From: Oligoflexia bacterium
GTDB lineage: Bacteria; Bdellovibrionota_G; JANQFH01
Assembly: GCA_028277945.1 (NCBI GenBank)
Contig: JANQFH010000024.1
Coordinates: forward strand, 102,917 to 166,916
Reading direction: 5' to 3'
DNA: 64,000 bases
Positions within the stretch are counted from its first letter, which is position 1, and each line of letters starts with the position of its first letter. Below the pieces are notes generated by a model. It was not told where the DNA came from, did no database searches, and saw only the letters and a list, made by a program, of their open reading frames with translations. The position numbers were made by a program, and so were the translations under genes. Shown piece after piece: positions 9,786-62,137 of this stretch.

Positions 9786-12377
9786 ATGCTGCTTCAGCAA
9801 CCTAGGCATGGCAGAGTTCTCACCCTGCTGATGATCTTGCCACTGTTTGTCCTGCTGCAGCTAACCCCTCCTGCTTCAATGGCCAGCAGTAGTAATTGGC
9901 GCGATCAATTGAGTAAAATGTATCCAAGACTCTATGAGCAGCTATTTGAAAAGCAAGGAGATGACATTTATCGATACCGCGAGCTTATTGATCTTATCGA
10001 TGACTATCCTAAAGAGTACCGCGACAAATTATTTCAGGATGAAGATCCTCTCGAAGACCTTATTGAGGATTATGATGAGTACAAGGCTTGGCTAGAGGAA
10101 AATCAAGATCTCAAACCAAAACATTACAGCTCTCCAGTAACTCGCGATGGTGTCATCAGATATCTGGAAGAGCGCCGTGAGCAGGGGAATGCAAAAGAGC
10201 AGTATGATCGACGCAGCAGATTCTTCGATAGTGGGTGGTTGACCGAAGCAAGAGTAGAGTTGTTGGAGTACTTTCGCGAGCACTGGGCCTATGAACAAAG
10301 CGATCAGGCTCCGAAAATGGCGATGTCGTCACCTCTAGAGGAAGATAGTTCAGACCAAGATAGTAGAGCGTTTGGCCGCTTTAGCTTCAAAGCAGATTTT
10401 GACCATGATCACCTATCGACGCCGGCAGATAAGGAGCTTTATCGTATGGAGGAGACTGCGGCTTCCTTTGAGGCGTCTTATAAATGGCTAAAGGTCAATA
10501 GAGCAAAAGACCTGCCGGAGTTGACTGTTGTTGAATTCAAAGAGAGCGGCATTCGTAACAACGACCCTACTGTAAAATTTCGTGAGGTTCTGATGGAGCC
10601 GATCTTACCTCATCTGCCAGCACTGATTATGCTCTATCGAGATTCCGAAGGTGATCCTAAGAGTACGGAAGTTCGCACGCATGTGAGGCAACTGCTGCGC
10701 AGTCTCTTGGCAAATAAGCTTGTAAAGCTAGCCTATCAAATATGGAAAGAGATGTTGGGTGCTTACTTACCTGTGGTAGAGACCTTTGCTCTCTATCCGG
10801 GATTTCTTCCAAGGTCGTGGCTTTTTGTTTCTCTGAATGAGGAGCCGCAGCTCGAGCTCATTCAAGGAGATAAAGGGGAGTGGCCGGACCTTTTGGGTAG
10901 CATTCCTGCCTTTTTGCGTCTGGTTCTCGGCAAGGAGAGAGATAGGAAGAGAAGCCTCACTGCAAAGGAGGTCTTTTGGCAAAGCCTTCCTCTCCACCCT
11001 GGCGAGGAGGAGCTTGCACGCATTGATGAGGAGCTGTCAGCTCATCTTGCACAAATGGATGAGGTAAATTGGGAATCGCTTGAAAAGATTTTGGCTTCCA
11101 CTCCAGAAGCGGATTTGCACGAGGCCATCCAATCTCTGTTTGGAGGGTCGAATCTACGTGGGCTTACCGGGCGCAACCTAGCTGCCTATGAGAGTTACAA
11201 AGGTGGTGAACAGCAGCTGTTAGGCGGGACTAATGCAGGCGGGTGGTATCGTCCCGCAGCGAGCTACCTCCTTACTGAAATAGATTATTCTTATAGAGAT
11301 TTTTTAGAGGAACAGCAGAAATACACGAAAGAAGGTTTAGTAGAAGCTTACCCGCAAGTATCGGATCCCACGGCAGCAAAGGACGAGAGACCAAGCCTGA
11401 ATTACGCCGCAAACCTTGAGCTGTTTGCTAGATTTATCCAGGTGAAAGATTCCATTCTAAGCAGTGGTTGTTTATCATCAACAGATGATCCGGTGCTTAC
11501 GTGGCAAAATACTTTTATGCAGCAGACTGATCATATGGAACCCTACCAGCGCAGGCGCTGGCTTGACCTCGAAGACGCTTTTCACTACGTAGGCTCGTCT
11601 GAGGAGGAGGATGAAACCATTGCTGAGTTGCTCGAACCACCAAGTTATTCTTCTTCGATACATACGATTCTTTTTGGGCGACCTGGCGGTTGGGCTGCAG
11701 AGAGACGATTAGGAGGCGATGCGGCAAAGGTTGCGCAATGGGCGCATGGCTACAGGGAAGCCGTCAATCAGAGAAACATACAACGGGCCGCGGAGTTTGT
11801 TGAAGAAAGGGGAAAGAAGACGGATGAACTGCGAAAACAGCATGAGTCTCTGTTATTTCAATATCGCAGGCTGCAGAGAGAGTGTGATGAATTCAACGAA
11901 AACTACTATAAGGCCGAAGAGGATGGAGAAGAGTCAGAGGCAGAAAGAGATCGAGATGCTCTCGTTGATGAGTTAGGCGCTTGTATCGCTCAGTTAGATA
12001 AAGTTCAAAGCAAGTTAGAAGAGGTAAGGCGGCATCTTTGGGACCAGTTGGTCGGTGTCGACGGACTCTACATCTACTATCTTCTGGCAAACAGACTTCC
12101 CTTTGATGAAGAACATTACAACTGGGGAGATGCAGATCCACAAGCGGCGGCCTTTCTGCGGGAGCAGTGGGCCGAGAGTCCTGAAGTGAAGTTGGCTACG
12201 GCTTTTGTCGACCAACTCAATACCATGATCTTTATGAGTTATTTCGACATCAATTTAGACGGTTATGCTGACTTTAACGATTTAAATATCTATAGGCGTA
12301 AGGTTGACTCCGTAGACTACCGACACTGGCATAGAAACCGCTCTGCTGATTTTTACGACTCGCGGCGTTCAAAGTGA
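9786..12377 (+). CDS. Hypothetical secreted acidic helical protein (864 aa from ATG 9786)
   Basis: The ATG at 9786 is preceded by AAGAGGA. Signal peptide MLLQQPRHGRVLTLLMILPLFVLLQLTPPASMA. The protein is very D/E-rich with coiled-coil-like stretches. A C-terminal DINLDGYADFND loop resembles an EF-hand or dockerin Ca loop. No family recognised. Confidence 0.6.
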   Translation: MLLQQPRHGRVLTLLMILPLFVLLQLTPPASMASSSNWRDQLSKMYPRLYEQLFEKQGDDIYRYRELIDLIDDYPKEYRDKLFQDEDPLEDLIEDYDEYKAWLEENQDLKPKHYSSPVTRDGVIRYLEERREQGNAKEQYDRRSRFFDSGWLTEARVELLEYFREHWAYEQSDQAPKMAMSSPLEEDSSDQDSRAFGRFSFKADFDHDHLSTPADKELYRMEETAASFEASYKWLKVNRAKDLPELTVVEFKESGIRNNDPTVKFREVLMEPILPHLPALIMLYRDSEGDPKSTEVRTHVRQLLRSLLANKLVKLAYQIWKEMLGAYLPVVETFALYPGFLPRSWLFVSLNEEPQLELIQGDKGEWPDLLGSIPAFLRLVLGKERDRKRSLTAKEVFWQSLPLHPGEEELARIDEELSAHLAQMDEVNWESLEKILASTPEADLHEAIQSLFGGSNLRGLTGRNLAAYESYKGGEQQLLGGTNAGGWYRPAASYLLTEIDYSYRDFLEEQQKYTKEGLVEAYPQVSDPTAAKDERPSLNYAANLELFARFIQVKDSILSSGCLSSTDDPVLTWQNTFMQQTDHMEPYQRRRWLDLEDAFHYVGSSEEEDETIAELLEPPSYSSSIHTILFGRPGGWAAERRLGGDAAKVAQWAHGYREAVNQRNIQRAAEFVEERGKKTDELRKQHESLLFQYRRLQRECDEFNENYYKAEEDGEESEAERDRDALVDELGACIAQLDKVQSKLEEVRRHLWDQLVGVDGLYIYYLLANRLPFDEEHYNWGDADPQAAAFLREQWAESPEVKLATAFVDQLNTMIFMSYFDINLDGYADFNDLNIYRRKVDSVDYRHWHRNRSADFYDSRRSK

Positions 12378-14627: not shown

Positions 14628-15731
14628 ATGTCCTCTGTCCCGGACTATAAGGTCAAAATACCACCTGAGATCGTCAAGTTTCTTGATAAGGCTGCACCCA
14701 AAGATGCCAAGCTTCTTGCTGCTCGGGGTTTGGTACCCATGGCGCCGGATGTACTGATTACGGCGCTGTTTTTGCTATCTGGCGATAGCGATGCTGAGGT
14801 TCGCGATACAGCAAAAAAGAGCCTCTTGGGACAGCCAGAAACCGCCTTAATCAATCTACTCAAGCAACCCTGCCATGCCAAGGTCCTCGACTTTTACGCA
14901 AAAACAAAAATGGATAACAGCACTATTATCGAGGCCATTCTTCTCAACCGCTATACCCCTGATGAAACCTTTGTCTATTTGGCACCGCAGGTTGGTGAGC
15001 AGCTGCTTACAATTATCGCCAACAACCAAGAACGGCTACTACGTTGCCCTAAGATTGGTGAGAGCCTGCGCAAAAATCCACAAGCATCCCAGTCTGTGAT
15101 TGATCGTATGGTCTCCTTTTTGCGTTTGAATGGCATCATTCTCGAAGGCGTTAGCGAAGAGCTTACCAGAGAAGAGATCCAACAGATTATGGCCGAGGAT
15201 GACCAGCTACTGATCGCGGCGATCTATAACGAAGATGAAGACGATAGCCTAGAAAACCTCTCTATCTCCCTGCTTCAGGAGGAAGATGATGAAGATCTGA
15301 CCAAAGAGGGAGTAAGTCTCGATGATCGGCAGATCTTGAAGAAACTTTCAGAGCTCACAGTTGCAGAAAAGATCAAGCTGGCGATCAAGGGAAACAGAGA
15401 GGTGCGTACGGTACTGATCAAGGATCCCAACAAGCTCATCTGTACGGCTGTCATCAAGAGTCCAAAGATCAAGGACAATGAAGTGATCAGCATTGCCCAG
15501 ATGCGCAGCGTTCATGACGAGATACTACGCTTGATCGCCAGAAATCCCGAGTGGACGAAAAATTACCAAATCAAGAGCTCACTAGTTAACAATCCCAAGT
15601 GTCCCATTCCTGTGGCGGTACAGTTTATCAAGCACCTGCGCGTCAACGACCTTGGTATGCTGTCTAAGAATCGCAATGTCTCACAGCAGGTGCGCCGCTT
15701 TGCCAGGCAGCTCTACAATCAGAAGCGCTAG
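14628..15731 (+). CDS. Hypothetical protein with HEAT/ARM-like repeats and an acidic central segment
   Basis: 367 aa, 43 nt downstream of the EF-G paralog. It has a HEAT-like LSGDSDAEVRDTAKKSLLG motif and an acidic DEDDSLENLSISLLQEEDDEDL stretch. No family recognised. Confidence 0.55.
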   Translation: MSSVPDYKVKIPPEIVKFLDKAAPKDAKLLAARGLVPMAPDVLITALFLLSGDSDAEVRDTAKKSLLGQPETALINLLKQPCHAKVLDFYAKTKMDNSTIIEAILLNRYTPDETFVYLAPQVGEQLLTIIANNQERLLRCPKIGESLRKNPQASQSVIDRMVSFLRLNGIILEGVSEELTREEIQQIMAEDDQLLIAAIYNEDEDDSLENLSISLLQEEDDEDLTKEGVSLDDRQILKKLSELTVAEKIKLAIKGNREVRTVLIKDPNKLICTAVIKSPKIKDNEVISIAQMRSVHDEILRLIARNPEWTKNYQIKSSLVNNPKCPIPVAVQFIKHLRVNDLGMLSKNRNVSQQVRRFARQLYNQKR

Positions 15732-23901: not shown

Positions 23902-25203
23902 ATGCGGATTTTATCCATGCGACCGAGCCTTGTTTATATATTGGGCACTGCCGGGGATGCTTTTTCGCAAGCGCTGTATACGGTGGGAAAAGCCGTGTTT
24001 CTGTGGCACTTTCTTGGCGATGATAATCTGCTCTCTGCGGGATTGATTGCCACGGCTTTCAGCTTTTTCTTCTTTTTTGAGGCTATCATGGAGGTGGTTT
24101 CTAGCTTTGCCGCGGATAGATGGGGTCTATCTAGAAGAAAGGTATTTTTAACGGGTATTCTGCTGCCGACAATCTGTTTTGTCGTGCTCTCGCTACATCC
24201 CTTTTGGATTGCAGATACCACGCTGGCCATGCTCGCTTTTGCTATCAGCCAGTTTCTGTTTGCAACCAGCATTACTTTGATATCCGGTACCTTTGATGGC
24301 TGGTCAATTACCGCCGAACTGTCGCAGGACTCTAGCTTTTCCAAGGCAAAGTTTTTTAGTTTGGCGACGATAGCCAAACGTTTAGCCTATTCTTTGGGAT
24401 GCTTGCTCATTGTCATAGTGTTATTCGTCATGGAAGCGAGTGAAAATCCTAACGTGAAAGGCATCTGGTGGACGCGCATATGGATATTTGCTGTGATATT
24501 TCAGATGATGCTGTTTGTGCTTTTGTATCATTTCTCCAGGGGACATGATTCCGTGCAAAAGGCAGGTCCACTGCCTGCATGGGCCCCTATGTTGCACGCT
24601 ACCTATCAACCATCAGCCCTACCCGGGCTTGTTTTGTACTGTAGCATGTATCTGCTAGGTATGGTGGTCACGGTTTCCTGGCCGACGCTGGTTGATGTTG
24701 TTGGGCCACGGCCGCTGCCCTACTTAATAGCGCCCGCGTTAACGCTGGTTGGTTTTTTTGGTGCTATGTGGGCGAAGCGTGTCACCAAACGATCGAGTGA
24801 TCAGGCCGCAGAACAACATGCGCTCAAAGGCGCACTGCACACCTGCTATCTTCTTATTGGTGCAGGGCTCTGTCTCTCTTTCTCTCAAGAGCGCGGCATG
24901 CTCCCATTGATTGCCGTGGCGTTTGTTATCCTCATGCGCCTACCTTTTTACTTTGGTTTTCCATTTGTCCTAAGCCTCATGCATGAGAATATTGGTGGCA
25001 GCGAGAATGTCCGTGCTTGCGTGGTGTCACTGCGTACAGCCACAGCGAGTCTGTTTGTTGGTGTCGCCTTTATCATACAACGTCTTCTATTCGACGCTCT
25101 CGCGCTAGCACCTTACAAGATGTTCGCCTGGACGCTGATTTGTGGTTCCCTGCTCGCCCTCGTGGCACTGCTAGCATTAAAGCTTCGCCAAAAAGATTTA
25201 TAA
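23902..25203 (+). CDS. Polytopic membrane protein, probably an MFS-type transporter
   Basis: 433 aa with about 12 hydrophobic helices and an MFS-like loop FAADRWGLSRRKV after TM2. Confidence 0.5.
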   Translation: MRILSMRPSLVYILGTAGDAFSQALYTVGKAVFLWHFLGDDNLLSAGLIATAFSFFFFFEAIMEVVSSFAADRWGLSRRKVFLTGILLPTICFVVLSLHPFWIADTTLAMLAFAISQFLFATSITLISGTFDGWSITAELSQDSSFSKAKFFSLATIAKRLAYSLGCLLIVIVLFVMEASENPNVKGIWWTRIWIFAVIFQMMLFVLLYHFSRGHDSVQKAGPLPAWAPMLHATYQPSALPGLVLYCSMYLLGMVVTVSWPTLVDVVGPRPLPYLIAPALTLVGFFGAMWAKRVTKRSSDQAAEQHALKGALHTCYLLIGAGLCLSFSQERGMLPLIAVAFVILMRLPFYFGFPFVLSLMHENIGGSENVRACVVSLRTATASLFVGVAFIIQRLLFDALALAPYKMFAWTLICGSLLALVALLALKLRQKDL

Positions 25204-38405: not shown

Positions 38406-39563
38406 TTAACGTTGGCTAAGTCGGTCTTCAATCACTCTCGAGATCAATAGAGTTGCCCGCCTCGGAATCTCAGCCAGTGAGTATATATCGAGAGGCTTGT
38501 CGCCGCTCTTTTTCTTAACTAGCCTTTCCAAAACCTTTTGAAACTCGTTTAGGGATCTTACCTGAACGGCCCAGTTTTCCTGGATAGCAACATTTGTGTA
38601 GTTTCCTGTTGGAAGATCTAAGTATATGACGGGTTTGTTCATAAAAAGCGCTTGTACCCCTACGGTCGATCGATGGCAGACAATTACTTCAGCAATCACA
38701 CTCACACTCTTTGTATCAATAGTCTTGGGAACGACTTGGATATTTTCGGCTCCCTCTTCTCTGAGGATTTGCTTTTCCAATTTTCCATCTACCTTAGGAT
38801 GAAGAGAAAGTAGAAAGGTCAGACTGGGAAAGGCTCTTGTAGCGCGTACAAATAGACGGAAAGCCTCTGCATAGTCTCTTCCGTAACCACCGGCGTAGAG
38901 AACCATGGGTCGCGTTGCAGCGAGTTCAAGTTTTGCATATATTTTCCTTGGATCAACGTTGGCTGTAGTCTGCGCCCAGTGTTCAAGGCTCGGCTGTCCA
39001 ACTACACGGAGTCTGTGCCCCTTCAGAAGGGACGAAGAGAGTTTATTTGTTGGAATCCAGATTTCGTCCCAAGAGTCACCTGCGCGGACCACAAGAGTAT
39101 CCTCTTCTGGAGGAGAAAAGGCATCATAAAAACCGGCGACAAAGGCTTCCTTCTTGTAGCTTCGAGCAACCTGTGCCTGAACTTCAGACACAACACCCGT
39201 AACAATCACCTTCGGTCTAACACAGCCTTTTAGTTTGGCGATTTGTTTCTCAGAGAGCTTCCTTGTCCTTGACCAGTGAATTCTCTCGGCAGACAAGACG
39301 ACGCCGCAATTTTTATCAAAGGATTTAGCGGGTTGCTGGCTCTCCACAAGGGAAAGGGCGGTTGAAAAGGCCAGTATCGCGTAGTCTATGCTTTTTTTAT
39401 CCAGCTCCTTGAATACTGGCTGGAGTCCCTTTGTCTCTCCTGCATCATACAAGACAAACAGGGTCGACGGGCCTTTGGCATCGCCGAAAGAGATGTGAAT
39501 TGCTAAAAGATAAAAGGACAGAAAAGTGGCTATGAAATACAGTGACTGACGTGCTTTTTTCAT
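38406..39563 (-). CDS. Hypothetical signal-anchored protein, possibly GT-B-fold glycosyltransferase-like
   Basis: The ATG at 39563 gives MKKARQSLYFIATFLSFYLLAIHISFG. Two Rossmann-like halves are suggested. The gene is AT-rich. The tracked ORF extends to 39596. Confidence 0.4.
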   Translation of the reverse strand: MKKARQSLYFIATFLSFYLLAIHISFGDAKGPSTLFVLYDAGETKGLQPVFKELDKKSIDYAILAFSTALSLVESQQPAKSFDKNCGVVLSAERIHWSRTRKLSEKQIAKLKGCVRPKVIVTGVVSEVQAQVARSYKKEAFVAGFYDAFSPPEEDTLVVRAGDSWDEIWIPTNKLSSSLLKGHRLRVVGQPSLEHWAQTTANVDPRKIYAKLELAATRPMVLYAGGYGRDYAEAFRLFVRATRAFPSLTFLLSLHPKVDGKLEKQILREEGAENIQVVPKTIDTKSVSVIAEVIVCHRSTVGVQALFMNKPVIYLDLPTGNYTNVAIQENWAVQVRSLNEFQKVLERLVKKKSGDKPLDIYSLAEIPRRATLLISRVIEDRLSQR

Positions 39564-39653
39564 GGAATTATAGAATTCTTCATTACCCAGGCCCAATAAA
39601 AATAGCTATGGTGATTTAAAGATCAACAGTTACAGGCCCTTAACATTTAGAGA

Positions 39654-53194: not shown

Positions 53195-54496
53195 CTAAGA
53201 GCTATCCTCTGTGGATCTTTCTTTCTGCCTTTGAATATAGGTGTGGGTATTGGAGAGGGCTTGAATCATATCCTTATCTGTCTCAGCCAAAAGAGCTGTT
53301 GCTACTTTCTCTAATGCCTCATCTGCACGGTTGATGTTGACCGCCACCAGTGCCTCTGCCTTGGCAGCAAGCGCCAGAGCATAACTATCGTCGATCGTGC
53401 GCCATAACTCTTCCTCGGCACGCTGCTCGTAAAAGGCAAATTTTCTCTCAAGGCTCTTGGCTTTAAGACCTAGTGCAGCTTGACGCCGCACCTCTCCATC
53501 CGCATCATCTAACCGCGCGATAAACAGGATAACTACCTCATCGTTCTTTTTCCAATCGAGGAATCCGAGCGCAGCCGTTGCCCGCTGCCGTGATCGTTGA
53601 TCATCGTTGTCGCCCGTTGCTTGTGCCAGCAATGAAAACGCCAGATCGAGTAAGGCTCTGTTGAATTCTAAATAGTATAATATGGTTTCCATGTCCTTAA
53701 CCATGAACTCCTTATCGGTAGTCAGGTAGTTTTCAACCAAATCCTCAAGCAGCACTGAGTAGGCGTCATCACCTTCTTCGTCGGACATGGGTTTATATTC
53801 CAACAAGTAGCCAAAGGCCACGGGAAGGGCCTCTCGCTGCCAAACCACATCTTCATCATTCCCTTTGAACTGCAGGTAATGGTCTGAGTAGAGTGCCTCG
53901 ACGGTTAGAGGTCTACTATAGAGGTGCTCACGCAGCTCAGACCCCACTAAAAATTTGTTTCTTTCTGCAAAACCTAACTCTGCCAACCAGACCCAAGTTC
54001 GATCTCCATGGCCAAGTTTAGCCAGTGTATGCAACGCCTGCGCTATAGCGTCCCTTAAGGTGAAATTTTTCTCTTCTTTTGCTTGGCGCGCATCTTCTTC
54101 TATCGCTACATCCAACAACTCATCGAAAGCAGCACCATACTCCATGGCAACTAAGGTCTCGACTGCCTGCTGTCGCAATTGTGCCGCCTGCCATGAGGAT
54201 TCCTCACCTTCTTCGGCACTCTTAACGATTTCTAGAACCGCCTCTCCCGCCTTTTCAGCAGCCTCTTTGCCTCTGTCAGCTAACATACAGAGAGCAGTGC
54301 TGCGCGTTTCGTAGCTCCATTCACTACTCAGTCGCTCTACCAAGGTGTCGATGTCGTCTATCAAGCCTGCAGGGTTGGCAATGCCTTGCGGGCAATGTGC
54401 CCGTGCGACTGCCTGGTTCGTTAACGTTGAGCTCATGACAAAGATACAGGCCAAAACAGTCGAGAGTCCGATCTTACTTTGGCTAGGTAAAGACAT
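53195..54496 (-). CDS. Secreted HEAT-repeat protein
   Basis: The ATG at 54496 lies 6 nt after GGAGG. Signal peptide MSLPSQSKIGLSTVLACIFVMSSTLTNQAVARA. It has HEAT-like units (TRSTALCMLADRGKEA; LDDADGEVRRQAALGLKAKS). It is divergent from the 2411-aa gene. Confidence 0.6.
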   Translation of the reverse strand: MSLPSQSKIGLSTVLACIFVMSSTLTNQAVARAHCPQGIANPAGLIDDIDTLVERLSSEWSYETRSTALCMLADRGKEAAEKAGEAVLEIVKSAEEGEESSWQAAQLRQQAVETLVAMEYGAAFDELLDVAIEEDARQAKEEKNFTLRDAIAQALHTLAKLGHGDRTWVWLAELGFAERNKFLVGSELREHLYSRPLTVEALYSDHYLQFKGNDEDVVWQREALPVAFGYLLEYKPMSDEEGDDAYSVLLEDLVENYLTTDKEFMVKDMETILYYLEFNRALLDLAFSLLAQATGDNDDQRSRQRATAALGFLDWKKNDEVVILFIARLDDADGEVRRQAALGLKAKSLERKFAFYEQRAEEELWRTIDDSYALALAAKAEALVAVNINRADEALEKVATALLAETDKDMIQALSNTHTYIQRQKERSTEDSS

Positions 54497-54745
54497 GACG
54501 ACCTCCAGCGGCAAGTAAGCCCTGATTAAAAATTCCTTGAGATTTCCCTAACCTAGATATCGCATCGTGTCAACAAGACATTTCTTTGTAACATCTCTCT
54601 TACCACGGGCTTGCCACGGGCGGCTGGGTCGCAAATAGGGAGAAGACTAAGAGAACAGCTCCTGCTGGCCCAAGGTAGATGGTCACCGGCCAGCCCTAAC
54701 TTATTTTTTCTTTTTTTCCAACAACTTAGTCTTTCCCATCCCCTC

Positions 54746-54774
54746 TTGACACCCCCTAACGCATCGCATACAAG
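54746..54774 (+). promoter_or_regulatory. Candidate promoter for the 2411-aa gene
   Basis: TTGACA (54746-54751), a 17-nt spacer, then TACAAG (54769-54774). The -10 is weak. Motif-only call. Confidence 0.25.
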
Positions 54775-54795
54775 ATTTAGTTATCAGGATATAGT

Positions 54796-57700
54796 ATGGC
54801 CGAGTTTCAGCGTAAGATTTTCACATCTTCAGTATTTTTCAGGTCTTTTGGTTTGCTGTGTTGGTTTGTATTGCTCTTTGCCAGCCCAGCTTTAGCCCAT
54901 TCTTCAGCAGCTGAGCTGTATGCCAACTACCGTTCTATATACGGCAGCTATAGTTGGTGGTTAGAGCGTTGGCTGGATTGGCATGAGCAGCGGCGTAGGT
55001 ACTTTGCCGAGATTGAGAGTCCTCAAGGAGACTTCACCGCCTTTGCCGAGACCTCAGCGTTTGCCGATTTATCAGATTTAGAGCAGCGGTTCTATTATGA
55101 GAACTCGCTTAGGCAGTTCACGGTTTTAAAGGCCGATGATCTAGTCATTGTAGCTCAAGCAGAGCCCAATGCCCTGGTACGTGCACAGTTATTAGAGGCT
55201 GCCTTAGGCAACTACCTGCTCGTGCAAGACCGTTGGCGTATTGAGGCCACAGACAGAGCGTTACTTACGACCTATGCTGAAGCTGGGGATGTTTTTTGGC
55301 AGCATTACTATGAAGCGCGGCGGATGATGCTGGGTTTGGATGCCACTGCTACTTGGCAGCAGATGCTCGTTGCTTTTGATCGTTTGGCCACAGAGACCCT
55401 CGGCCTATCTGAGTACGAACGCATCTACCAGGGCTCTCAGCACTTTTTAGCTTACATAGAAGAGGAGGAGCCTCGTTCCATAGCCCGCAATCTTGCCAAG
55501 AACGGTTTGGCCCTGACCCTGTTGGAATCGAGCGATGTCAACAGTACCTGGAAGAACTCCGCTTATGAGACCTCAAAGTTAATCAAGCAACTCGGTTTGC
55601 TCTCTGTGTTGCTGGAGTGGGTCCATAACCAAGAAGCTAGTACGCTTGAGGAGGCGCTGCCTCTCCTGACAAAGCATGCTCCTAAGAGCGGCGTCCTACC
55701 CAAGCAAGAGGGTGAGCCTGGGGTGCACTATGTGGATGTGACCCAGAAGGTCTATTTGGGGTTGGGTCAAGAGAACGATCGTTGGATCCTACGTGGGGGT
55801 GAGATCTATTTACTCCCAAGCATCCAAGATAAGCAGATCACCATTGAGGTCACTGAGATTGGTGGGATGGTGGGCATGGTTCGTGACACTCCTACTGTCC
55901 AGGTAGATGACACCCAGAGAGGTACGGGACGTCTGTGGGCTTTAGATGAGGCTAAGCTGTATGCCAAGGTAAAGCTGCGCTCATCCATGCATTTTGCAGG
56001 GGATCAAGTAGGTACGATAACCGTTCAGCATGGCAGGATCATCGCCTCGGAGTATGAAGAGAACAAAGATCTCCATGGCAAGCTCTACCTAGCCTTGCAG
56101 CCGAGCAAACTACGGCGTCAATGGATCAGCTCACTATACCGGGATCTTCCCAAGCAATGGCAACAACAGGGACGTACAGATGTCGCCCTATTAGATGATC
56201 TTCTAGCACTCGAGCGTCTCTCTAAGCACAACTGGCGTTCTCGGCATGATCGTTATCTTGCCATGGCCAAGCGTTACCGCAGAGAGCACAGCCACAACAC
56301 CGCGACCCACATTGCAGAGGATAACCTGTTGTTGACCCTACACTCCCGTGAAGCTGAGGAGATGGCCGCACAGATCAATGGTTTTTTTGGCGATCGTCAT
56401 AGGGATCAACTAGCCGCTTTTACGATCTACGATCTGCCCATTTTAGTCCCCGCCTTAGCATTGATGGTTCCAAGTGGGGGTGCCAGCCTTGGTGGCGTAG
56501 CCGCGGCCACGGGGCGTAGTGTAATGTGGCGCACTCTGTTTGCTCAAGGAGCCAAGCGTTGGTTGATCCGAGGTCTTATTGGTAGCTCTATCCTCACTCC
56601 CTTACACGCGGGTTGGAAGCATCTAACTGGCCGTCCAGCCTTGGATCACATCTGGTTAGACTTTGCCGTCAATGCCACCTTTATTGCTTCGTTTGGCGGT
56701 ATTCGTGTGCTGCATCAGCTGGGAGACCGGTTGATGTTGAAGGCGCTGCCTTTTTTAAGAAAGCCAGGGGGTTATCTCGTACCACGGATGACCTTCCGCG
56801 GCACCATGGAAGCGGCTCCAGCCTTAAGCCATACAGGTACGGCGTTGAGTCAAACGGCTTTGGTTTTAGAGATGGGTATGGCTCTCACCGCAGCCTCTGG
56901 GGGTTGGAGTAATCTGCTTAGTCTCGGTGCCCAAGGTCCCAAAAGCCTGAGTGATTGGCGCGATCTGTATTTTCGTACGACGTTGATGGTGGGTATGCTG
57001 CATACCTCCTTAGTGGCTATGCGACCTGGTCTTTTACGCCAACCCATCATCGGTCAACAGATCGCTGGCCAACGCTTTGGCTTGCAACAGATCGGTCAGC
57101 AGCTGCAACCCTCGACTCGTCCAGGTTCTTCCCAGCCTGCAAACTATGCCAGACAGGCTGAAGCAGTTGCTCTGGAGATCATGGAGAGCTGGCGCCAAGG
57201 AGGCTCTGGACCTCGGCAGCCTAGCTCAAGTTGGGGAGAGGCTGGCAACTACAACAATTTTGTAGAAAGCCTGCCTGGATCCTCAACAACAGGACCGAGA
57301 GCGGCTACACCCGTAAACAGTAGACAAGTGGCGACAAGAACAACAACACCCACCTCAAGTAGAACCCAGAGCCCACAGAATAACCGGCAAACTACTCCTG
57401 AAAATACCCCCACAACAACCATGCCAGATATGCCAGCTGTGGTACCCATTACCGTACTACCCGCTATGCCAGAGATGTTCCCTGCTGAACCGGATGCAAC
57501 AACGACAATGCCTGATGAAGCTCAATCAAAAGCAGTCTTGCACAAGGCAAATTTTCAGGCTAGCAATGCCCCTCCATCCCTTCCTCCCGGCAATGACCTT
57601 TTAGATTGGTTTGCCTACGTAAAACTCTGTGCTGAATCTAGCGAATTTTGTGGTCGTTTTTCGTTTAAAGACTTTCAAACACAACGTAATGAACTGTTGA

Positions 57701-60700
57701 CAGCGTGGGGGCATCTTCTTGGGGACGAAACATTTGATCCTAAGCGCGAATTTCAGACCCTGTTAAGGCAACTCATAGTCGCACTTGAGACTGCAACAGG
57801 GTTGGAAAGATTCAAATCCTTCCGCGCTAATGAATTTGAATCGGTGGGAAGAGAAATTGAAGCACTAGGTGGGAAGATGGCCTACTATACGCTAAACATG
57901 GTGGGTGGAAGGCGTGTCATGCTAAGGCTCATTCCAGAGAGTCTCATGGATGCGGACAGGCAAGGGATCAACGTTGGCATTGTAGAGACTCAGTTTCTGG
58001 CTCAATATGATTTGGCACCAGAGATTTTAGGGGTCGTCCCAGCAGATGAACTTAAAGAACTACTGAAACTGCCAGGAATTAGTGACAACCCTCACGACCC
58101 GTTTGTTCTTGGTGTGGTGTTTGAAGATTTCAGTGATGCCTATTGGCCAGGACACGAGGAAATGCCTACAGGTGAAGAGCGCTCGTGGGACCCAATGGCT
58201 GTACGTCACCGTATGTTGGCTTTGGAATACTTTCTAGATCAATTGCATATAAACTATTCAAGCCAAATTGAGCTTCTCATCATGCCCGATGGACGAGTAT
58301 GGGTGTTCCCAAGTGACCTGCCACACTTTGCTGGGGTTGATGCAGACGTAAGGAATAATTTTGTTAGTCATCTCTGGAATCGAGTAGAGTGGGCTGACAT
58401 AGACCCTGACCGGTTTGGAGATTCTGTAGTATCGCTGCGACCCTTTCTTGAAGCCATGGGCCTACAGCCACCAAGTGGAAGGTCTCTTTCTGCGGAAGAC
58501 ATCGACGCTGAGCTCCGTGGTGAGGGCGGTATCAATGACCCGGATGAGACGGAACGACGCCTCATTGAGGGATGGCAAAGAATGATTGAACATGATGATT
58601 CTAATGGCGGTCCAAGAGGACCGCAGGCACTCTTGGACGATGGGACCTCTGGGGAGAGTTTTGGGCCACCCCTGCCTTTGGACTACGGCCCACCCCTCGA
58701 TCCAGAACTTACAGAGATGCCGTTGCTGCCGCATATTGTTCTTCCGAAGACCTCACCTTATATCGGTGATTCCCCTGGTTCCGCCACTTCCTTTGTGGCA
58801 TCCGAACAGGACAATCCATTGAGAGAGGATCGTGAAGAACAGTTTCGACATGCAGACCAAAAGCTACGATTGATTTTTGGTAATGCTGCCAATTGGGCAT
58901 TTCATAATAGTCCACCTAGCCTTGAGCACTATTTCCAAACGGAGCATGGATCACCAGAGCAAACTACACAAGAACGACAACTATTGGTGTTGCGCGCAAT
59001 GCTTGATGGCGTCTTTTTTGCTGGATTAAATAGATTGCTCGAACTCCAAAAGCTCTTTTTGTTTTCGGATGAAACGTTGCAACAGTTTAGAAGGTTCAAA
59101 GAACGTGTTCTTGCTAACCCTCCATCCAAGGGTAGAGACATAGCTGCTATTCTAGGTGAAATAGAAAAGGAGGCTAGTGATCTTATTGGCAGTCGGATCG
59201 ATGACGTTATGATTAGTGTTTTTCGCGATCCAGAGTTGGCTCCTCAGAGTGTACGGGATGCCCTTGCCCAGGCAGGTGTTGACTACCAGGACACTGTGCG
59301 TTGGAGTCCGGAAGTGCTTGCCCCAGATAAGTTTCAACAGCTGTTGTTTGAAGTTATGAAGGTTCTTGGGTGGGACGGCACTATTGAAGTCGGTATTACG
59401 TTTGGGCTTCCCGATCCTAGACATCCAGATCGACTATATCAGCTTCACGCTACAATACCTGAATGGGCTGGTTATATGGCACTGGTTCATGAGATAGGCC
59501 ACTGGTACCAAAGCTTTAGTCTTTTGCGGGCTGGGAGGCCAAGGCCTACTACACCTACCGTCACTATAGAAGGTGCCGATCTTTTCGAAACGCTTAGAGA
59601 ACTTGAAGTTTATCTTGAGATGCTAAGACCTACTGACCCAGAACATAGGACAACGGAGGAATTGCTTGACAGAGTTCACCATCTATCTCAACTTTTCGAT
59701 TATTATCTTCCACTGCTTCGCACCCTAGCTGCAAGGTCTGATCTAGTGACCGAGGTTGAAACTGCGTTACGTGTTGGAGAAGGTGAACACAGTGAAAATC
59801 CAGATTACGAAAGGTTTGTTGCATTCTGGCTTTCATTGGTTGATCCTGAATTTATACAGGAGGTTGTTGAAACACTTGATCGTCTTGAGGAACGTGCGGA
59901 AATTGTTCTCGAATTTTATTCGAGTTTAGACCTCTCCGTACGTCTTCAAAGTAGACCATCGTTGATTTTAGAAGAAGAAACCATGTCTGAGAGCGGAGGC
60001 GAAACTGTTGCGTCCTCGCCTCCTAGTCGCGGGTCTTCTCGAAGTACCTCTGTGGCGCCTGCCCGCCCTACTAGCATTGCCCAAAACGAACCTTGTCCTT
60101 GTGGCAGCGGTAAAAAATTCAAGAAATGTCATGGCGCGCCGGGTGGACCGAACGCACTCTTGGACGATGGGATCTCTGGGGAGAGTTTTGGGCCGCCCCT
60201 GCCTTTGGACTACGGCCCACCAGTCGATCTAGAACTTACAGAGATGCCGTTGCTGCCGCATTGGCATGCGGGGCAAGGCGCTGCAGGGTTTCCACTGGGG
60301 GACAGTGATGCAGATCCGCCATTCCTAACTCCTCGTTGGATCGAACAGACCACCCCGCCATGGGTGGTGGGTGACGAAGCTGATGTCGATGCTGCTGACG
60401 GTGACAACACAGACGAAACAGCAGCGCAACCACTCCTGACGCCGCTCGCTCCATCTCTATTGCCAAATGACGGGCTGTCCAATTTGCAGCTGCAAGCTTC
60501 TTCTGAGGAAAGAGATGCGGAAGACCAATCGACACCCGATGAACCCGAGGAAGCAACAACTCCAGCAGCAGAAGAAGCTCAACCAAGTGACGCTGGGCAC
60601 GAAGATGTCGTTGTAGATTTGTTAGGAGAGGAAGCCGCTACAATTTGGCATGCGCACTGGCCGTTAGAAGCTGACGCCACTGATTTAGCAGAGCAATTGT

Positions 60701-62031
60701 ACAGAGCCCTGGTTGCTGAAGCAGACATCCTAGGTAGAATGTTCGATGCGAAACTCAAAGCGGTTGGCTCTAATAGAGAGGAGGCGATTAGATGGGCGGA
60801 TCGAGATGCCGAGGGTGGAGAAGCAGAGGAAGACATCCCTGAAGATGTTTATCAGAGATACAAAAGAGCTGAAGCATTAGCGAGGGCAGATGCCGATTTT
60901 CAGCGGCAGATGCAAACCATTGAATTACTGAAGACCCTTTTAAAAGGAGCCGTAGATCGCTTAGCCAGTTGGGGCATCCATACATTGATCCATCGTCTTG
61001 GTCTTAGACCAGAACTATCCTTGGGAGAAGCGATGGGTGGTATGCCGACATGGGATGCTAACGAAGTATTTGCAGAAGCTGTGGGTAGTCTCCTACTTAG
61101 TCGAGGCATTGATTTTTTTGGTCCGGAATCCCCAATTACTGATGTGATGCTTGTTCAAGAGAGACTAAGGTGGGATTTAGCCTTGATAGCATTTACAGCA
61201 GGAGTTGATCCGGCAGTACTGACGACAGATTCTCATTATGAACTAGTACAGGACGACCTAAATGCTTTGCTACAGACGCTCGCAGTAGTTTGTCGTCGGA
61301 TTGAGGTGTTAGAGGTACAACGCGCCCTGGGACTTCGCACCATTAGCAAAGCAATAGCAGCTCTCGAAGCATTGCAAGGGGAAACAGGGCAGCGTGAATT
61401 TGAAGTTGAGGGTTTAACGGCTAACGAGAGGGATTTTTTTAATCTTGTTATATTGAATGCGCTTCCCGACGAGTTTGATGTTGCTAGTGCGATATCCGTA
61501 TTAGCAGACCTTCGTGCAGAGCAAAATCGAGCCGTTGATACAAAACAAGCGCTAGACAGATCTTTAAAGCCGTTATTGGATCTGCTTGAGCGATTTGATC
61601 AATTTCTGGGTGAACAGAGTGATGTAGAGCACAGCCTTGCGGATGCTTTTAGAGGTCAAGATGTGTCTGAACATCGGTTGAGAGAAAGAGTACAAATTTT
61701 CTTTGGTGGAAATAGAGAACTATCCGAAGCCGTCTACAAAGCTTTCCTTGGTGAACAGCATCTTGAGGGAGAAGCCAAAGTCGAATTTTGGCGTCGAGTT
61801 GCGGAGATTGCCGCTACAGCGTCTAATTTACTTTGGTCTATTGTGCACCGCCATCGAGCTCTGCCAACAGTAGAAACAATGGGCGATGGCATGGCACTAC
61901 GCTTTCAACCGGCTAGCCCTGAACTTGACCCAGCAGCAAGAGCAGAACAAATTGAGCGAGCCCTTGCTCGCGTGGCTGTAGAGTTCCGGTCCCGTCTTGA
62001 AGCGAGAGAGCGTGAACAAGGTGGTGAATAA
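54796..62031 (+). CDS. Giant multi-module protein (2411 aa): signal peptide, ~500-aa exported region, ~5 TM helices, S/T/P linker, three large modules separated by a duplicated 36-aa motif; HEIGH and SEC-C motifs
   Basis: The reading frame is uninterrupted for 7.2 kb, with AGGA 8 nt before the ATG. The N-terminus FVLLFASPALA|HS looks like a signal peptide. Hydrophobic helices lie around aa 540-745. HEIGH is at aa 1565-1569 and CPCGSGKKFKKCHG at aa 1767-1780. Confidence 0.8.
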   Translation: MAEFQRKIFTSSVFFRSFGLLCWFVLLFASPALAHSSAAELYANYRSIYGSYSWWLERWLDWHEQRRRYFAEIESPQGDFTAFAETSAFADLSDLEQRFYYENSLRQFTVLKADDLVIVAQAEPNALVRAQLLEAALGNYLLVQDRWRIEATDRALLTTYAEAGDVFWQHYYEARRMMLGLDATATWQQMLVAFDRLATETLGLSEYERIYQGSQHFLAYIEEEEPRSIARNLAKNGLALTLLESSDVNSTWKNSAYETSKLIKQLGLLSVLLEWVHNQEASTLEEALPLLTKHAPKSGVLPKQEGEPGVHYVDVTQKVYLGLGQENDRWILRGGEIYLLPSIQDKQITIEVTEIGGMVGMVRDTPTVQVDDTQRGTGRLWALDEAKLYAKVKLRSSMHFAGDQVGTITVQHGRIIASEYEENKDLHGKLYLALQPSKLRRQWISSLYRDLPKQWQQQGRTDVALLDDLLALERLSKHNWRSRHDRYLAMAKRYRREHSHNTATHIAEDNLLLTLHSREAEEMAAQINGFFGDRHRDQLAAFTIYDLPILVPALALMVPSGGASLGGVAAATGRSVMWRTLFAQGAKRWLIRGLIGSSILTPLHAGWKHLTGRPALDHIWLDFAVNATFIASFGGIRVLHQLGDRLMLKALPFLRKPGGYLVPRMTFRGTMEAAPALSHTGTALSQTALVLEMGMALTAASGGWSNLLSLGAQGPKSLSDWRDLYFRTTLMVGMLHTSLVAMRPGLLRQPIIGQQIAGQRFGLQQIGQQLQPSTRPGSSQPANYARQAEAVALEIMESWRQGGSGPRQPSSSWGEAGNYNNFVESLPGSSTTGPRAATPVNSRQVATRTTTPTSSRTQSPQNNRQTTPENTPTTTMPDMPAVVPITVLPAMPEMFPAEPDATTTMPDEAQSKAVLHKANFQASNAPPSLPPGNDLLDWFAYVKLCAESSEFCGRFSFKDFQTQRNELLTAWGHLLGDETFDPKREFQTLLRQLIVALETATGLERFKSFRANEFESVGREIEALGGKMAYYTLNMVGGRRVMLRLIPESLMDADRQGINVGIVETQFLAQYDLAPEILGVVPADELKELLKLPGISDNPHDPFVLGVVFEDFSDAYWPGHEEMPTGEERSWDPMAVRHRMLALEYFLDQLHINYSSQIELLIMPDGRVWVFPSDLPHFAGVDADVRNNFVSHLWNRVEWADIDPDRFGDSVVSLRPFLEAMGLQPPSGRSLSAEDIDAELRGEGGINDPDETERRLIEGWQRMIEHDDSNGGPRGPQALLDDGTSGESFGPPLPLDYGPPLDPELTEMPLLPHIVLPKTSPYIGDSPGSATSFVASEQDNPLREDREEQFRHADQKLRLIFGNAANWAFHNSPPSLEHYFQTEHGSPEQTTQERQLLVLRAMLDGVFFAGLNRLLELQKLFLFSDETLQQFRRFKERVLANPPSKGRDIAAILGEIEKEASDLIGSRIDDVMISVFRDPELAPQSVRDALAQAGVDYQDTVRWSPEVLAPDKFQQLLFEVMKVLGWDGTIEVGITFGLPDPRHPDRLYQLHATIPEWAGYMALVHEIGHWYQSFSLLRAGRPRPTTPTVTIEGADLFETLRELEVYLEMLRPTDPEHRTTEELLDRVHHLSQLFDYYLPLLRTLAARSDLVTEVETALRVGEGEHSENPDYERFVAFWLSLVDPEFIQEVVETLDRLEERAEIVLEFYSSLDLSVRLQSRPSLILEEETMSESGGETVASSPPSRGSSRSTSVAPARPTSIAQNEPCPCGSGKKFKKCHGAPGGPNALLDDGISGESFGPPLPLDYGPPVDLELTEMPLLPHWHAGQGAAGFPLGDSDADPPFLTPRWIEQTTPPWVVGDEADVDAADGDNTDETAAQPLLTPLAPSLLPNDGLSNLQLQASSEERDAEDQSTPDEPEEATTPAAEEAQPSDAGHEDVVVDLLGEEAATIWHAHWPLEADATDLAEQLYRALVAEADILGRMFDAKLKAVGSNREEAIRWADRDAEGGEAEEDIPEDVYQRYKRAEALARADADFQRQMQTIELLKTLLKGAVDRLASWGIHTLIHRLGLRPELSLGEAMGGMPTWDANEVFAEAVGSLLLSRGIDFFGPESPITDVMLVQERLRWDLALIAFTAGVDPAVLTTDSHYELVQDDLNALLQTLAVVCRRIEVLEVQRALGLRTISKAIAALEALQGETGQREFEVEGLTANERDFFNLVILNALPDEFDVASAISVLADLRAEQNRAVDTKQALDRSLKPLLDLLERFDQFLGEQSDVEHSLADAFRGQDVSEHRLRERVQIFFGGNRELSEAVYKAFLGEQHLEGEAKVEFWRRVAEIAATASNLLWSIVHRHRALPTVETMGDGMALRFQPASPELDPAARAEQIERALARVAVEFRSRLEAREREQGGE
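58627..58734 (+). repeat. Intragenic repeat R1 (36 codons: ALLDDGTSGESFGPPLPLDYGPPLDPELTEMPLLPH)
   Basis: It matches 60154..60261 at 103 of 108 nt by hand alignment, in the same reading frame. Confidence 0.9.
60154..60261 (+). repeat. Intragenic repeat R2 (ALLDDGISGESFGPPLPLDYGPPVDLELTEMPLLPH)
   Basis: See R1. It starts 6 codons after the SEC-C motif. Confidence 0.9.
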
Positions 62032-62045
62032 ACTAGGCTAAAGGC

Positions 62046-62075
62046 TTGACTTAGAGCGGCTGGTGCAGGTATATA
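62046..62075 (+). promoter_or_regulatory. Candidate promoter for rplY
   Basis: TTGACT (62046-62051), an 18-nt spacer, then TATATA (62070-62075). A GGCAAC...GTTGCC hairpin lies in the leader. Motif-only call. Confidence 0.3.
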
Positions 62076-62137
62076 GCCCCGGGTTCAAGGCAACATCGCT
62101 GATTCGTTGCCAAAATAGCGACCCCAGAATAGAGACC

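What the first reader, a model, noticed from the sequence alone, without database searches (positions are those of the whole stretch)
58627..60261. Two 108-nt repeats, 95% identical, in frame and 1.4 kb apart inside the giant gene
R1 (58627-58734) and R2 (60154-60261) differ at 5 of 108 nt. They encode ALLDDG(T/I)SGESFGPPLPLDYGPP(L/V)D(P/L)ELTEMPLLPH. Both are preceded by a Gly/Pro turn (GGPRGPQ and APGGPN). The surrounding sequences are unrelated, so only this 36-aa unit is being kept nearly identical. That points to recent duplication, gene conversion, or strong selection on a Pro-rich linear motif. Because each copy sits exactly at a module boundary, it could be a processing site, a docking peptide for a partner such as the HEAT-repeat neighbour, or a recombination joint that swaps modules.
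Basis: partly seen in the sequence, partly recalled or inferred. Interest (0 to 1): 0.6.

Follow-up and report, generated by a model that had tools for sequence, protein, structure and literature searches.

The report
Duplicated linker joint in giant gene
A 36-residue proline-rich linker occurs twice, almost letter for letter, on either side of one module of a 2411-residue protein, and it most likely marks where modules were joined by recombination in a fast-evolving gene family of an uncultured Bdellovibrio-like bacterium.

Summary
The repeat is real. Positions 58627-58734 and 60154-60261 differ at 5 of 108 nt. They lie 1527 nt (509 codons) apart, in frame, in ORF 54796-62031 (2411 aa). Two of the five differences are synonymous, so the likeness comes from recent shared DNA ancestry (fusion, duplication or conversion), not from selection on the peptide.

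Copy 2 starts where a SEC-C zinc motif ends. In the only two detectable relatives of the inter-repeat module (HExxH ... SEC-C), that motif ends the protein. Module B has therefore been internalised here.

The last 16 residues of the repeat (GPPxxxxLxEMPxLPH) recur, diverged, in two paralogues of the same genome. There they also sit between a shared Ser/Thr/Pro linker and unrelated C-terminal regions. The paralogues share further 79-91% identical nucleotide patches (upstream element plus signal peptide, linker) separated by unrelated sequence.

Best reading: a family-specific, probably disordered joint at which cargo modules were fused. I found no support for a processing site or for docking to the neighbouring gene.

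The motif was not found in 16 other genomes of the phylum or in the protein and metagenome collections searched. Interest is moderate: a known evolutionary principle in an undescribed family.

The parts
54796..62031 (+). Giant ORF, 2411 aa. Order: signal-peptide-like N-terminus (aa 1-34), N-terminal domain, hydrophobic region (aa ~540-800), Ser/Thr/Pro linker (aa ~801-960), module A, R1, module B, R2, acidic stretch, module C.
   Evidence: ORF and translation. (hydropathy: segments 11-29 and 540-571). (the only Pfam hit is SEC-C). The signal-peptide cleavage site A-L-A|H was read by eye; no predictor was run.
58604..58734 (+). Repeat copy R1. Core 58627-58734 = aa 1278-1313, ALLDDGTSGESFGPPLPLDYGPPLDPELTEMPLLPH. 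The 23 nt before it encode NGGPRGPQ.
60131..60261 (+). Repeat copy R2. Core 60154-60261 = aa 1787-1822. The 23 nt before it encode (C)HGAPGGPN and overlap the last codons of the SEC-C motif.
58735..60084 (+). Module B, between the repeats. It carries HEIGH at 59488-59502 (aa 1565-1569), ELEVxLE and WLSLVD, all conserved in its two relatives.
   Evidence: The HExxH, ELEV and WL columns are invariant in 3 of 3 sequences.
60085..60135 (+). SEC-C zinc-binding motif (aa 1764-1780), the C-terminal end of module B.
   Evidence: PF02810, 34.9 bits against cut-off 20.4. (7 of 8 SEC-C-bearing NCBIfam profiles carry it at their extreme C-terminus and 1 at the N-terminus).
57676..58602 (+). Module A (aa 961-1269). 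No relatives were found. There is a weak protein-kinase-like lead.
   Evidence: 0 of 16 other genomes of the phylum. (feature look-alikes at 0.90-0.91 in Kdo/RIO1/ABC1-type clusters; a lead only).
60262..62028 (+). Acidic low-complexity stretch (aa 1823-1960) followed by helical module C (aa 1961-2411). No relatives were found.
54703..54896 (+). 5' patch shared with paralogues: 93 nt upstream plus the first 34 codons. It contains a 33-nt element (54745-54777, includes TTGACA) that is identical in three genes of the genome.
   Evidence: The sigma-70 consensus scan scored no promoter here.
57232..57501 (+). Linker patch shared with paralogues: 84% over 139 nt with the 1213-aa paralogue on contig C2, and 71% over 225 nt with the 1447-aa paralogue on C10.

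Best explanation
R is a family-specific inter-module joint. It is a short, acidic, proline-rich and probably unstructured linker that precedes a cargo module in a lineage-specific family of large secreted or membrane-anchored proteins.

The giant gene is a serial fusion. It was a gene that once ended with module B, whose SEC-C motif is a protein terminus in its relatives. That gene was joined, at or just before its stop codon, to the 'joint + module C' part of a paralogue. Equivalently, 'joint + module B' was inserted in front of 'joint + module C'. Either way the joint is left on both sides of module B.

The near-identity of the two copies reflects recent common DNA ancestry of the two joints (a recent fusion or duplication, possibly refreshed by gene conversion). 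It does not reflect selection on the peptide.

Shown: the repeat; its frame; the SEC-C end directly before copy 2; the terminal position of SEC-C in both relatives; the diverged motif at the same architectural position in two paralogues; the patchwork of nucleotide identity among the paralogues.

Inferred: the order of events; that the joint acts as the homology patch for module exchange; that the peptide is a flexible tether.
For: (1) There are 5 differences in 108 nt and only 2 are synonymous. The same 16-residue tail in the paralogues is 34-35 of 48 nt identical to R, with 2-4 synonymous changes among 8-11 conserved codons. R1 and R2 are therefore far younger than the family motif.

(2) SEC-C (aa 1764-1780) ends where the extended copy 2 begins (60131).

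(3) Relatives of module B were sought in three ways: an exhaustive HMMER search of 1.84 billion representatives (2 hits at E<=0.001, of which I judge one a spurious coiled-coil/PAS match), 40 related genomes, and a pattern scan of 185,579 species genomes (1 locus). The only relatives found are P0008 and the 881-aa protein of G004. Both stop 2-3 residues after the SEC-C motif.

(4) Neither relative carries an R-like motif (hhalign probability 0.04% and 0.14%). R therefore belongs to the host gene family, not to module B.

(5) Two paralogues in the same genome carry GPPFQPSLDEMPVLPH and GPPFQPDLIELPLSPY between the shared Ser/Thr/Pro linker and unrelated C-terminal regions. Eight columns are invariant across the 4 instances.

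(6) The family is a mosaic at the DNA level. The 5' patch is 88-91% identical, the linker patch 68-85% and the post-linker patch 79-84%, each bounded by unrelated sequence. R1/R2 at 95% is the most similar patch.

(7) The right edge of both copies is sharp. The left edge of similarity coincides with the end of SEC-C, as expected if that point is the fusion junction.

(8) Both copies are modelled as coil with block-mean pLDDT about 25-36. This is weak evidence, because the whole model is poor (mean 47).

(9) GC3 of the R units is 0.57-0.61. This is closer to the N-terminal half (0.53-0.55) than to modules B and C (0.35-0.36). It is one observation of 44 codons and only suggestive.
Against: No parental gene, orphan 'joint + module' cassette or alternative arrangement was found. 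The motif profile hits only the four in-gene copies in this genome, plus one antisense chance match.

The family is known from one metagenome-assembled genome. Module exchange is therefore inferred from five paralogues, not observed between strains.

The similarity to the paralogues' motif covers only 16 residues.

One linker-bearing paralogue (1447 aa, contig C10) lacks the motif.

The module A / R1 boundary cannot be checked against relatives, because module A has none.

The 16-of-23 similarity left of the core may partly reflect shared Gly/Pro codons.

A simple copy-and-paste of R1 to the module B / module C junction would give the same picture.
Confidence: 0.58

Rival explanations
1. R is a functional short linear motif, such as a protease-processing site or a docking peptide. 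It would mark each cargo module for release or recognition, and its two copies would be kept alike by selection together with gene conversion. One version: the HExxH module B cuts at its own flanks, so the giant protein is a self-processing polyprotein.
For: The copies flank the only module with a metalloprotease-like HExxH, which is conserved in 3 of 3 sequences. A 16-residue core with 8 invariant positions is kept in paralogues whose DNA has diverged to about 72%. Divergence is uneven: 7 of 23 mismatches left of the core against 5 of 108 inside it. This fits a conversion tract.
Against: Three of the five differences between the copies change residues, two of them inside the conserved tail (L/V, P/L). 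That is not the pattern of tight peptide constraint. One paralogue lacks the motif. Neither relative of module B has it. Module B matches no peptidase family in Pfam or NCBIfam. Its model is too poor to assign a fold. No partner is indicated by gene neighbourhood.
Confidence: 0.15
2. A plain, recent local duplication. Some 108-131 nt of R1 were copied by illegitimate recombination or slippage to a second site in the same gene. The copy was tolerated because it landed in frame in an existing inter-domain linker. This has nothing to do with module exchange.
For: There are only two DNA copies in the genome, both in one gene. Identity is high. In-frame insertions in linkers are the ones that survive.
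Against: It does not explain why the site is exactly the end of a motif that ends the protein in both relatives. It does not explain why a related motif sits at the equivalent boundary in two paralogues. It does not explain why the 23 nt on the left are much more diverged than the core.
Confidence: 0.15
3. A switch. RecA-type recombination between R1 and R2 deletes module B plus one repeat in frame (1527 nt = 509 codons). Some cells would then make a shorter protein with module A joined to module C.
For: The repeats are direct and in frame, with identical runs of up to 31 nt. The product would stay open.
Against: No contig joining across the segment was seen. The contigs over the upstream region, module B and module C have similar mean depth (32.6, 31.8, 29.9). 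Contigs drop rare variants, however, and this run may be the source of the assembly. Five mismatches split the homology into short runs.
Confidence: 0.05
4. Assembly artefact: the repeat or the order of the modules was created by mis-joining at a repeated sequence.
For: The genome is a 92-contig metagenome assembly. An independent contig set of the same run breaks at the 29-31 nt shared tail of the repeat.
Against: One contig of that independent set runs uninterrupted from the tail of R1 through module B, SEC-C and all of R2 (58705-60260). The next contig overlaps it by 29 nt and continues into module C (60232-62100). The two copies differ at 5 positions and are only 108 nt long, so ordinary reads can span them. 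The only other resolution of the graph needs a free 1.5-kb circle at the same depth as the chromosome.
Confidence: 0.03

Closest known systems
Crinkler (CRN) effectors of Phytophthora and their HVLVVVP junction motif
   Same: Members share a signal peptide and a conserved N-terminal part. A short conserved motif marks the junction with unrelated C-terminal modules and has been reported as the recombination breakpoint. Otherwise unrelated genes share conserved fragments of 40-303 bp (PMC3726527, passages read). Here the paralogues share patches of 66-225 nt and a short motif before the variable modules.
   Different: CRN genes are eukaryotic (oomycete), the sequences are unrelated, and there are hundreds of CRN genes. 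Here there are five bacterial paralogues in one genome. The junction motif is repeated within one gene, so that two modules are stacked rather than exchanged.
Bacterial polymorphic toxin systems (CdiA, Rhs, MafB and others)
   Same: A constant 5' gene body is combined with diverse C-terminal domains that are generated by recombination (PMC3482391, abstract, passages).
   Different: There is no immunity gene directly 3': the ribosomal protein L25 gene starts 31 nt after the stop. No stand-alone cassettes carry the joint. No known toxin, trafficking or pre-toxin domain was found by Pfam in any of the five paralogues. The cargo modules here are in series.
'Terminal reassortment' of type III secreted effectors
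   Same: New chimeric secreted proteins arise by fusing a shared 5' region to unrelated 3' parts. I read this only as cited in the discussion of PMC3726527; I did not read the original paper. Three genes here share an identical 33-nt upstream element and a signal-peptide-like start.
   Different: No type III system or signal was examined. The N-terminus looks like a Sec signal peptide. The fusion point carries a recognisable repeated joint.
MARTX toxins
   Same: These are very large secreted proteins whose central region is an array of modular effector domains. The domains are released by processing, and their composition varies by gene exchange (abstracts of PMC4453568, PMC6731672 and PMC5555677 in the listing).
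   Different: Pfam found no RTX-type repeats and no cysteine protease domain. Processing is not shown. The organism is an uncultured Bdellovibrio-like bacterium.
SEC-C motif proteins (SecA C-terminus, YchJ-type proteins)
   Same: Module B ends with a canonical CPCGSGKKFKKCHG, which scores above the Pfam cut-off.
   Different: In the profiles matched, the motif is terminal in 8 of 8: 7 C-terminal and 1 N-terminal. Here 631 residues follow it.

Membership tests
SEC-C motif (Pfam PF02810) | CxC...C[HC] zinc-binding motif scoring above the curated cut-off | tested here: met
   34.9 bits against 20.4, aa 1764-1780.
SEC-C motif (Pfam PF02810) | Position at a protein terminus, as in SecA and YchJ-type families | tested here: not met
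   631 residues follow the motif; it is terminal in 8 of 8 SEC-C-bearing NCBIfam profiles matched; it is C-terminal in both relatives of module B.
Classical polymorphic toxin system | Constant N-terminal or 5' part with unrelated C-terminal parts among family members | tested here: met
   the shared 5' patch and linker patches are followed by unrelated C-terminal regions.
Classical polymorphic toxin system | Small immunity gene immediately 3' of the toxin gene (PMC3482391) | tested here: not met
   the L25 gene follows the giant gene. No consistent small same-strand ORF lies behind the five paralogues.
Classical polymorphic toxin system | Stand-alone toxin cassettes nearby that carry the junction sequence | tested here: not met
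   the motif is found only inside the three full-length genes of this genome, plus one antisense chance match.
Classical polymorphic toxin system | Recognised toxin domain or trafficking domain | tested here: inconclusive
   there are no Pfam families other than SEC-C in any of the five paralogues. Unknown domains cannot be excluded.
MARTX toxin | Glycine-rich RTX-type repeat regions and a cysteine protease (autoprocessing) domain | tested here: not met
   the Pfam scan at E<=1 returns only SEC-C and a sub-threshold DALR_2 match.
HExxH (zincin-type) metallopeptidase, for module B | Conserved HExxH | tested here: met
   H, E and H are invariant in 3 of 3 sequences (HEIGH, HEIGH, HELGH).
HExxH (zincin-type) metallopeptidase, for module B | Zincin fold with a third metal ligand, or a match to a peptidase family | tested here: inconclusive
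   no peptidase family matched; no solved relative by sequence; the model has mean pLDDT 47 and gives only generic helical matches (best Z 8.5).

The most novel reading that the evidence does not exclude
The giant protein is a self-processing polyprotein. The HExxH module B, or another protease, would cut within the repeated joint on both of its sides. That would release modules A, B and C as separate products from a membrane-anchored carrier. The logic is MARTX-like, but built from an unrelated protease and a new cleavage motif, in an uncultured coral-associated Bdellovibrio-like bacterium. The two sites would be kept alike by gene conversion.
Probability: 0.08. Interest if true: 0.7.

Novelty: new variant of a known kind. 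Interest (0 to 1): 0.35.

Why it matters
The locus is a clear bacterial example of how very large multi-module secreted proteins can be built. A short family-specific joint sits in front of each cargo module. A module that elsewhere ends a protein has been trapped between two copies of that joint.

The family has no Pfam domain apart from SEC-C and almost no relatives in the collections searched. It therefore points to undescribed cargo domains in an uncultured Bdellovibrio-like lineage found in a coral metagenome.

The three genes that share an identical 33-nt upstream element offer a testable co-regulated set.

The evolutionary principle (mosaic families with junction motifs) is already known, so the finding extends it rather than overturning anything.

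Tried and rejected
Giant homologues. A word-based search of 5.8 billion proteins with residues 1200-1900 found the protein itself and one SecA-like protein through SEC-C (2 hits among 8000 scored). With R1-module B-R2 as a stand-alone query, 5 of 5 hits were SecA proteins through SEC-C. With the 44-residue joint and 'longer' lengths, 0 of 20 candidates scored.

Metagenome contigs. The module B alignment gave 562 pattern matches and none was confirmed. A degenerate DNA pattern for ELTEMPLLPH gave 0 matches.

Genomes of the phylum. The joint profile, module A, module C and the N-terminal 800 residues were each found in 1 of 17 genomes, the window's own only. Completeness of the other 16 genomes is 58-98%.

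A fifth weak joint-like match (contig C10, E 0.0025) lies antisense inside a 283-aa gene. I rejected it as chance.

A resemblance seen by eye between 'PLLPHIVLP' after R1 and 'PILPIVLN' in P0008 was not supported by profile comparison.

Contig C66 carries a 76% match to the upstream element, but no family gene lies behind it.

Structure. The AlphaFold2 model of R1-module B-R2, built from 3 sequences, had mean pLDDT 47. A search of 48,161 chains gave only generic helical bundles (best Z 8.5). No fold is assigned.

ESM Atlas for module B returned only SEC-C clusters at 0.83-0.86.

Reads. Only contigs of three runs of one study could be laid, and one of those runs may be the source of this assembly. 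No joint across the inter-repeat segment was listed. Positions 57513-58704 had no listed contig. Other contigs touching 60085-60129 are SEC-C motifs of other organisms. None of this shows absence of a deletion form.

Complex prediction of the 36-mer with the neighbouring 'HEAT' gene was not run. Nothing but adjacency links them. The HEAT call is below threshold, and the gene has no copy near the paralogues.

Script error. One search read nucleotides as protein by mistake, so its output is void. It was repeated correctly.

Literature. I made no literature search for this protein family. The statement that it is undescribed rests on the database searches above only.
Full report
OBSERVATION. The window carries a 2411-codon ORF at 54796-62031 on the + strand. 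Inside it, 58627-58734 and 60154-60261 differ at 5 of 108 nt. The copies are 1527 nt (509 codons) apart, so both are read in the same frame, as residues 1278-1313 and 1787-1822. Three differences change the residue (T/I, L/V, P/L) and two are synonymous. The repeat finder and blastn extend the match 23 nt to the left at lower identity (16 of 23), giving 131 nt at 91%. On the right, identity stops abruptly after the His codon. blastn against the whole 2.86-Mb genome gives E = 1.3e-45, and there is no third DNA copy.

IS IT AN ASSEMBLY ARTEFACT? One public run (coded X1, a coral metagenome, possibly the source of this assembly) holds 99% of the sampled words of 58300-60600. In its independently built contigs, one 1556-nt contig runs without difference from 58705 (the tail of R1) through the inter-repeat segment and the whole of R2 to 60260. 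The next contig overlaps it by 29 nt and runs from 60232 to beyond 62100. The breaks fall at the 31-nt identical tail of the repeat. This is what short-word contigs do at a repeat (the word length of that contig set is recalled, not taken from a call). The contigs over the upstream region, the inter-repeat segment and the downstream region have mean word depths of 32.6, 31.8 and 29.9. The two copies differ at five positions and are shorter than ordinary reads. I rate an artefact at about 3%. This is not independent DNA, and contigs cannot show rare variants.

WHAT LIES BETWEEN AND AROUND THE COPIES. Pfam finds one domain in the whole protein: a SEC-C zinc motif at residues 1764-1780 (34.9 bits, cut-off 20.4). 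That is 60085-60135, and the extended copy 2 begins at 60131. In the NCBIfam profiles that matched through this motif, it lies at the extreme C-terminus in 7 of 8 and at the extreme N-terminus in 1 of 8. Here 631 residues follow it. The inter-repeat segment ('module B') also carries HEIGH at residues 1565-1569.

Relatives of module B are very rare.
- A search of 40 related genomes found one real match besides SecA termini: a gene in G004 (E 5e-14). Its record title calls it a Bdellovibrionota MAG.
- An exhaustive HMMER search of 1.84 billion representative proteins gave 2 hits at E<=0.001. One is real (P0008, E 3.4e-13, aligned to query residues 63-432). The other is a PAS/coiled-coil protein that I judge spurious.
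- The pattern scan of 185,579 species genomes found only the G004 locus.
- The metagenome scan found none.

The G004 protein has 881 aa, with a signal-peptide-like start, hydrophobic segments, a Pro-rich linker and then module B. Both it and P0008 stop 2-3 residues after the SEC-C motif. HExxH, ELEV and WL columns are invariant in the three sequences. Module B is therefore normally the C-terminal end of a protein, and in the giant gene it has been internalised. Neither relative has an R-like motif. R belongs to the host gene, not to module B.

THE FAMILY CONTEXT. Six-frame searches of the window's own genome show that the giant gene has paralogues.
- A 1590-aa ORF on contig C10 shares the first 39 residues at 82% identity. 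It carries GPPFQPSLDEMPVLPH once.
- A 1213-aa ORF on C2 carries GPPFQPDLIELPLSPY.
- A 1447-aa ORF on C10 shares the Ser/Thr/Pro linker but lacks the motif.
- A 1019-aa ORF on C24 shares part of the N-terminal domain (25% over residues 388-701).

In the two motif-bearing paralogues, the motif lies between the shared linker and unrelated C-terminal regions. This is the same architectural position that R has before modules B and C. An alignment of the four instances has 8 invariant columns: one Pro further upstream, then G-P-P ... L-x-E-x-P ... P in the 16-residue tail. At DNA level the tails are 34-35 of 48 nt identical to R, against 45 of 48 between R1 and R2.

The paralogues are a mosaic at DNA level.
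- A 5' patch (93 nt upstream plus 34 codons) is 90.7% identical between the giant gene and the 1590-aa gene, 90.4% to the 1213-aa gene, and 87.9% between those two.
- A linker patch is 68-85% identical.
- A post-linker patch is 79-84% identical.
- Each patch is bounded by unrelated sequence.

A 33-nt element containing TTGACA (54745-54777) is identical upstream of three of the genes. The consensus sigma-70 scan does not score it as a promoter. None of the five paralogues has any Pfam domain other than SEC-C. The joint profile, module A, module C and the N-terminal 800 residues were each found only in the window's own genome among the 17 genomes of the phylum held.

PHYSICAL NATURE OF R. Each copy has 19-22% Pro, 22% Leu, 11% Gly, no basic residue and net charge -7. 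It contains an internal echo (GPPLPLDY / GPPLDPEL; read). It is embedded in longer acidic, Pro-rich stretches. In the AlphaFold2 model of R1-module B-R2, both copies are coil with block-mean pLDDT about 25-36. The whole model is poor (mean 47), so this is weak evidence. GC3 of the two 44-codon R units is 0.57-0.61, against 0.36 and 0.35 for modules B and C and 0.53-0.55 for the N-terminal half. This is a small sample and counts as one observation.

BEST EXPLANATION (about 0.58). R is the family's inter-module joint. The giant gene arose when a gene ending in module B was fused, at its very end, to the 'joint + module C' part of a paralogue. Equivalently, 'joint + module B' was inserted before 'joint + module C'. 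This accounts for:
- the SEC-C motif directly before copy 2;
- the left limit of similarity coinciding with the end of that motif;
- the sharp right edges at the start of each module;
- the related motif at the same position in paralogues;
- the mosaic of shared patches.

The low synonymous divergence shows that the near-identity is due to recency or gene conversion, not to selection on the peptide. Mismatches are unevenly spread (7 of 23 left of the core, 5 of 108 inside it). This hints at conversion or at an older junction, and I cannot tell which. The order of events, and the role of R as the homology patch, are inferred.

RIVALS. Four rivals remain.
- A functional linear motif (processing or docking site), about 0.15. 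For it: the position on both sides of the HExxH module, and the conserved 16-residue core. Against it: 2 of the 3 residue changes fall in that core, one paralogue and both module B relatives lack it, and module B cannot be assigned to any peptidase family or fold.
- A plain local duplication unrelated to module exchange, about 0.15. It does not explain the coincidence with a protein-terminal motif or the paralogues' motif.
- A recombination switch that deletes module B in frame, about 0.05. It is possible on paper, but no sign of it was seen, and the data cannot exclude rare events.
- An artefact, about 0.03.

That gene (53195-54514, minus strand) reaches only 21.8 bits against a HEAT_2 cut-off of 27.7. 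It has its own signal-peptide-like start, and it has no copy elsewhere in the genome, so none lies beside the paralogues.

COMPARISON WITH KNOWN SYSTEMS.
- The closest analogue in logic is the Crinkler family of Phytophthora. A short motif (HVLVVVP) marks the recombination breakpoint between a shared N-terminus and unrelated C-terminal modules, and unrelated genes share 40-303-bp fragments (PMC3726527, passages read). The families are unrelated in sequence and in host.
- Bacterial polymorphic toxins share the principle of a constant 5' body with recombining C-terminal cassettes (PMC3482391, abstract and passages). Their defining immunity gene and stand-alone cassettes were looked for and not found, so I do not file this locus there.
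- MARTX toxins share the array of modules in one very large protein (abstracts in the listing). Pfam found neither their repeats nor their protease domain.
- 'Terminal reassortment' of type III effectors is cited only through PMC3726527.

TAXONOMY AND HABITAT. The nearest genome with a named record is a Bdellovibrionota MAG. Earlier notes on other pieces of this genome also call it Bdellovibrio-like. The only run holding the DNA is labelled coral metagenome. The surrounding genes are ordinary chromosomal genes: hemA/C/D, valS, fusA, bamB, der, era, mreC, PBP2, rodA, prs, L25 and pth.

VERDICT. The repeat is real and well explained. It is a duplicated linker joint that records a module fusion in an undescribed mosaic gene family. 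The principle is known and the family is new. Interest 0.35.

Noticed in passing
window 54703-54795 (33-nt core 54745-54777); also G000 contigs C10 and C2: A 93-nt upstream stretch is about 90% identical in front of three paralogous large genes. It contains a 33-nt element with TTGACA that is identical in all three, followed by AGGA and ATG. It looks like a shared control region, but the sigma-70 consensus scan did not score it.
   Followed up: partly
window 57676-58602 (module A, aa 961-1269): No relatives or Pfam domain were found. By eye there is a degenerate kinase-like pattern. The language-model look-alikes with a family are Kdo/RIO1/ABC1/YrbL-type clusters at 0.90-0.91. It may be a protein-kinase-like or pseudokinase module. 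This is a lead only.
   Followed up: partly
window 54796-62031: There is a step in codon composition inside the gene. GC3 is 0.53-0.55 for residues 1-800 and 0.35-0.43 for the linker and modules A, B and C. The two repeat units are islands of 0.57-0.61. This fits a different history for the constant and variable halves.
   Followed up: partly
window 58684-58731 and 60211-60258: The repeat contains its own small echo, GPPLPLDY followed by GPPLDPEL (GPPVDLEL in copy 2). The joint itself therefore grew by a micro-duplication.
   Followed up: no
L019:1090-3735 (G004, Bdellovibrionota MAG): The only genomic relative of module B has the same overall layout as the window's family: a signal-peptide-like start, hydrophobic segments, a Pro-rich linker and then the module. 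Its N-terminal parts show no detectable sequence similarity. The architecture may be older than the family.
   Followed up: partly
It has a hydrophobic N-terminus and has no paralogue in the genome.
   Followed up: partly
window 9720-12377, 14628-15731, 23902-25203, 38406-39596: Four sizeable ORFs (885, 367, 433 and 396 aa) among housekeeping genes have no Pfam family at E<=1e-5.
   Followed up: no
window 60085-60129: Contigs of other organisms from all three coral-metagenome runs match this 45-nt stretch at 90% or more, because it encodes the highly conserved SEC-C motif. Depth spikes here are not copies of this gene.
   Followed up: yes
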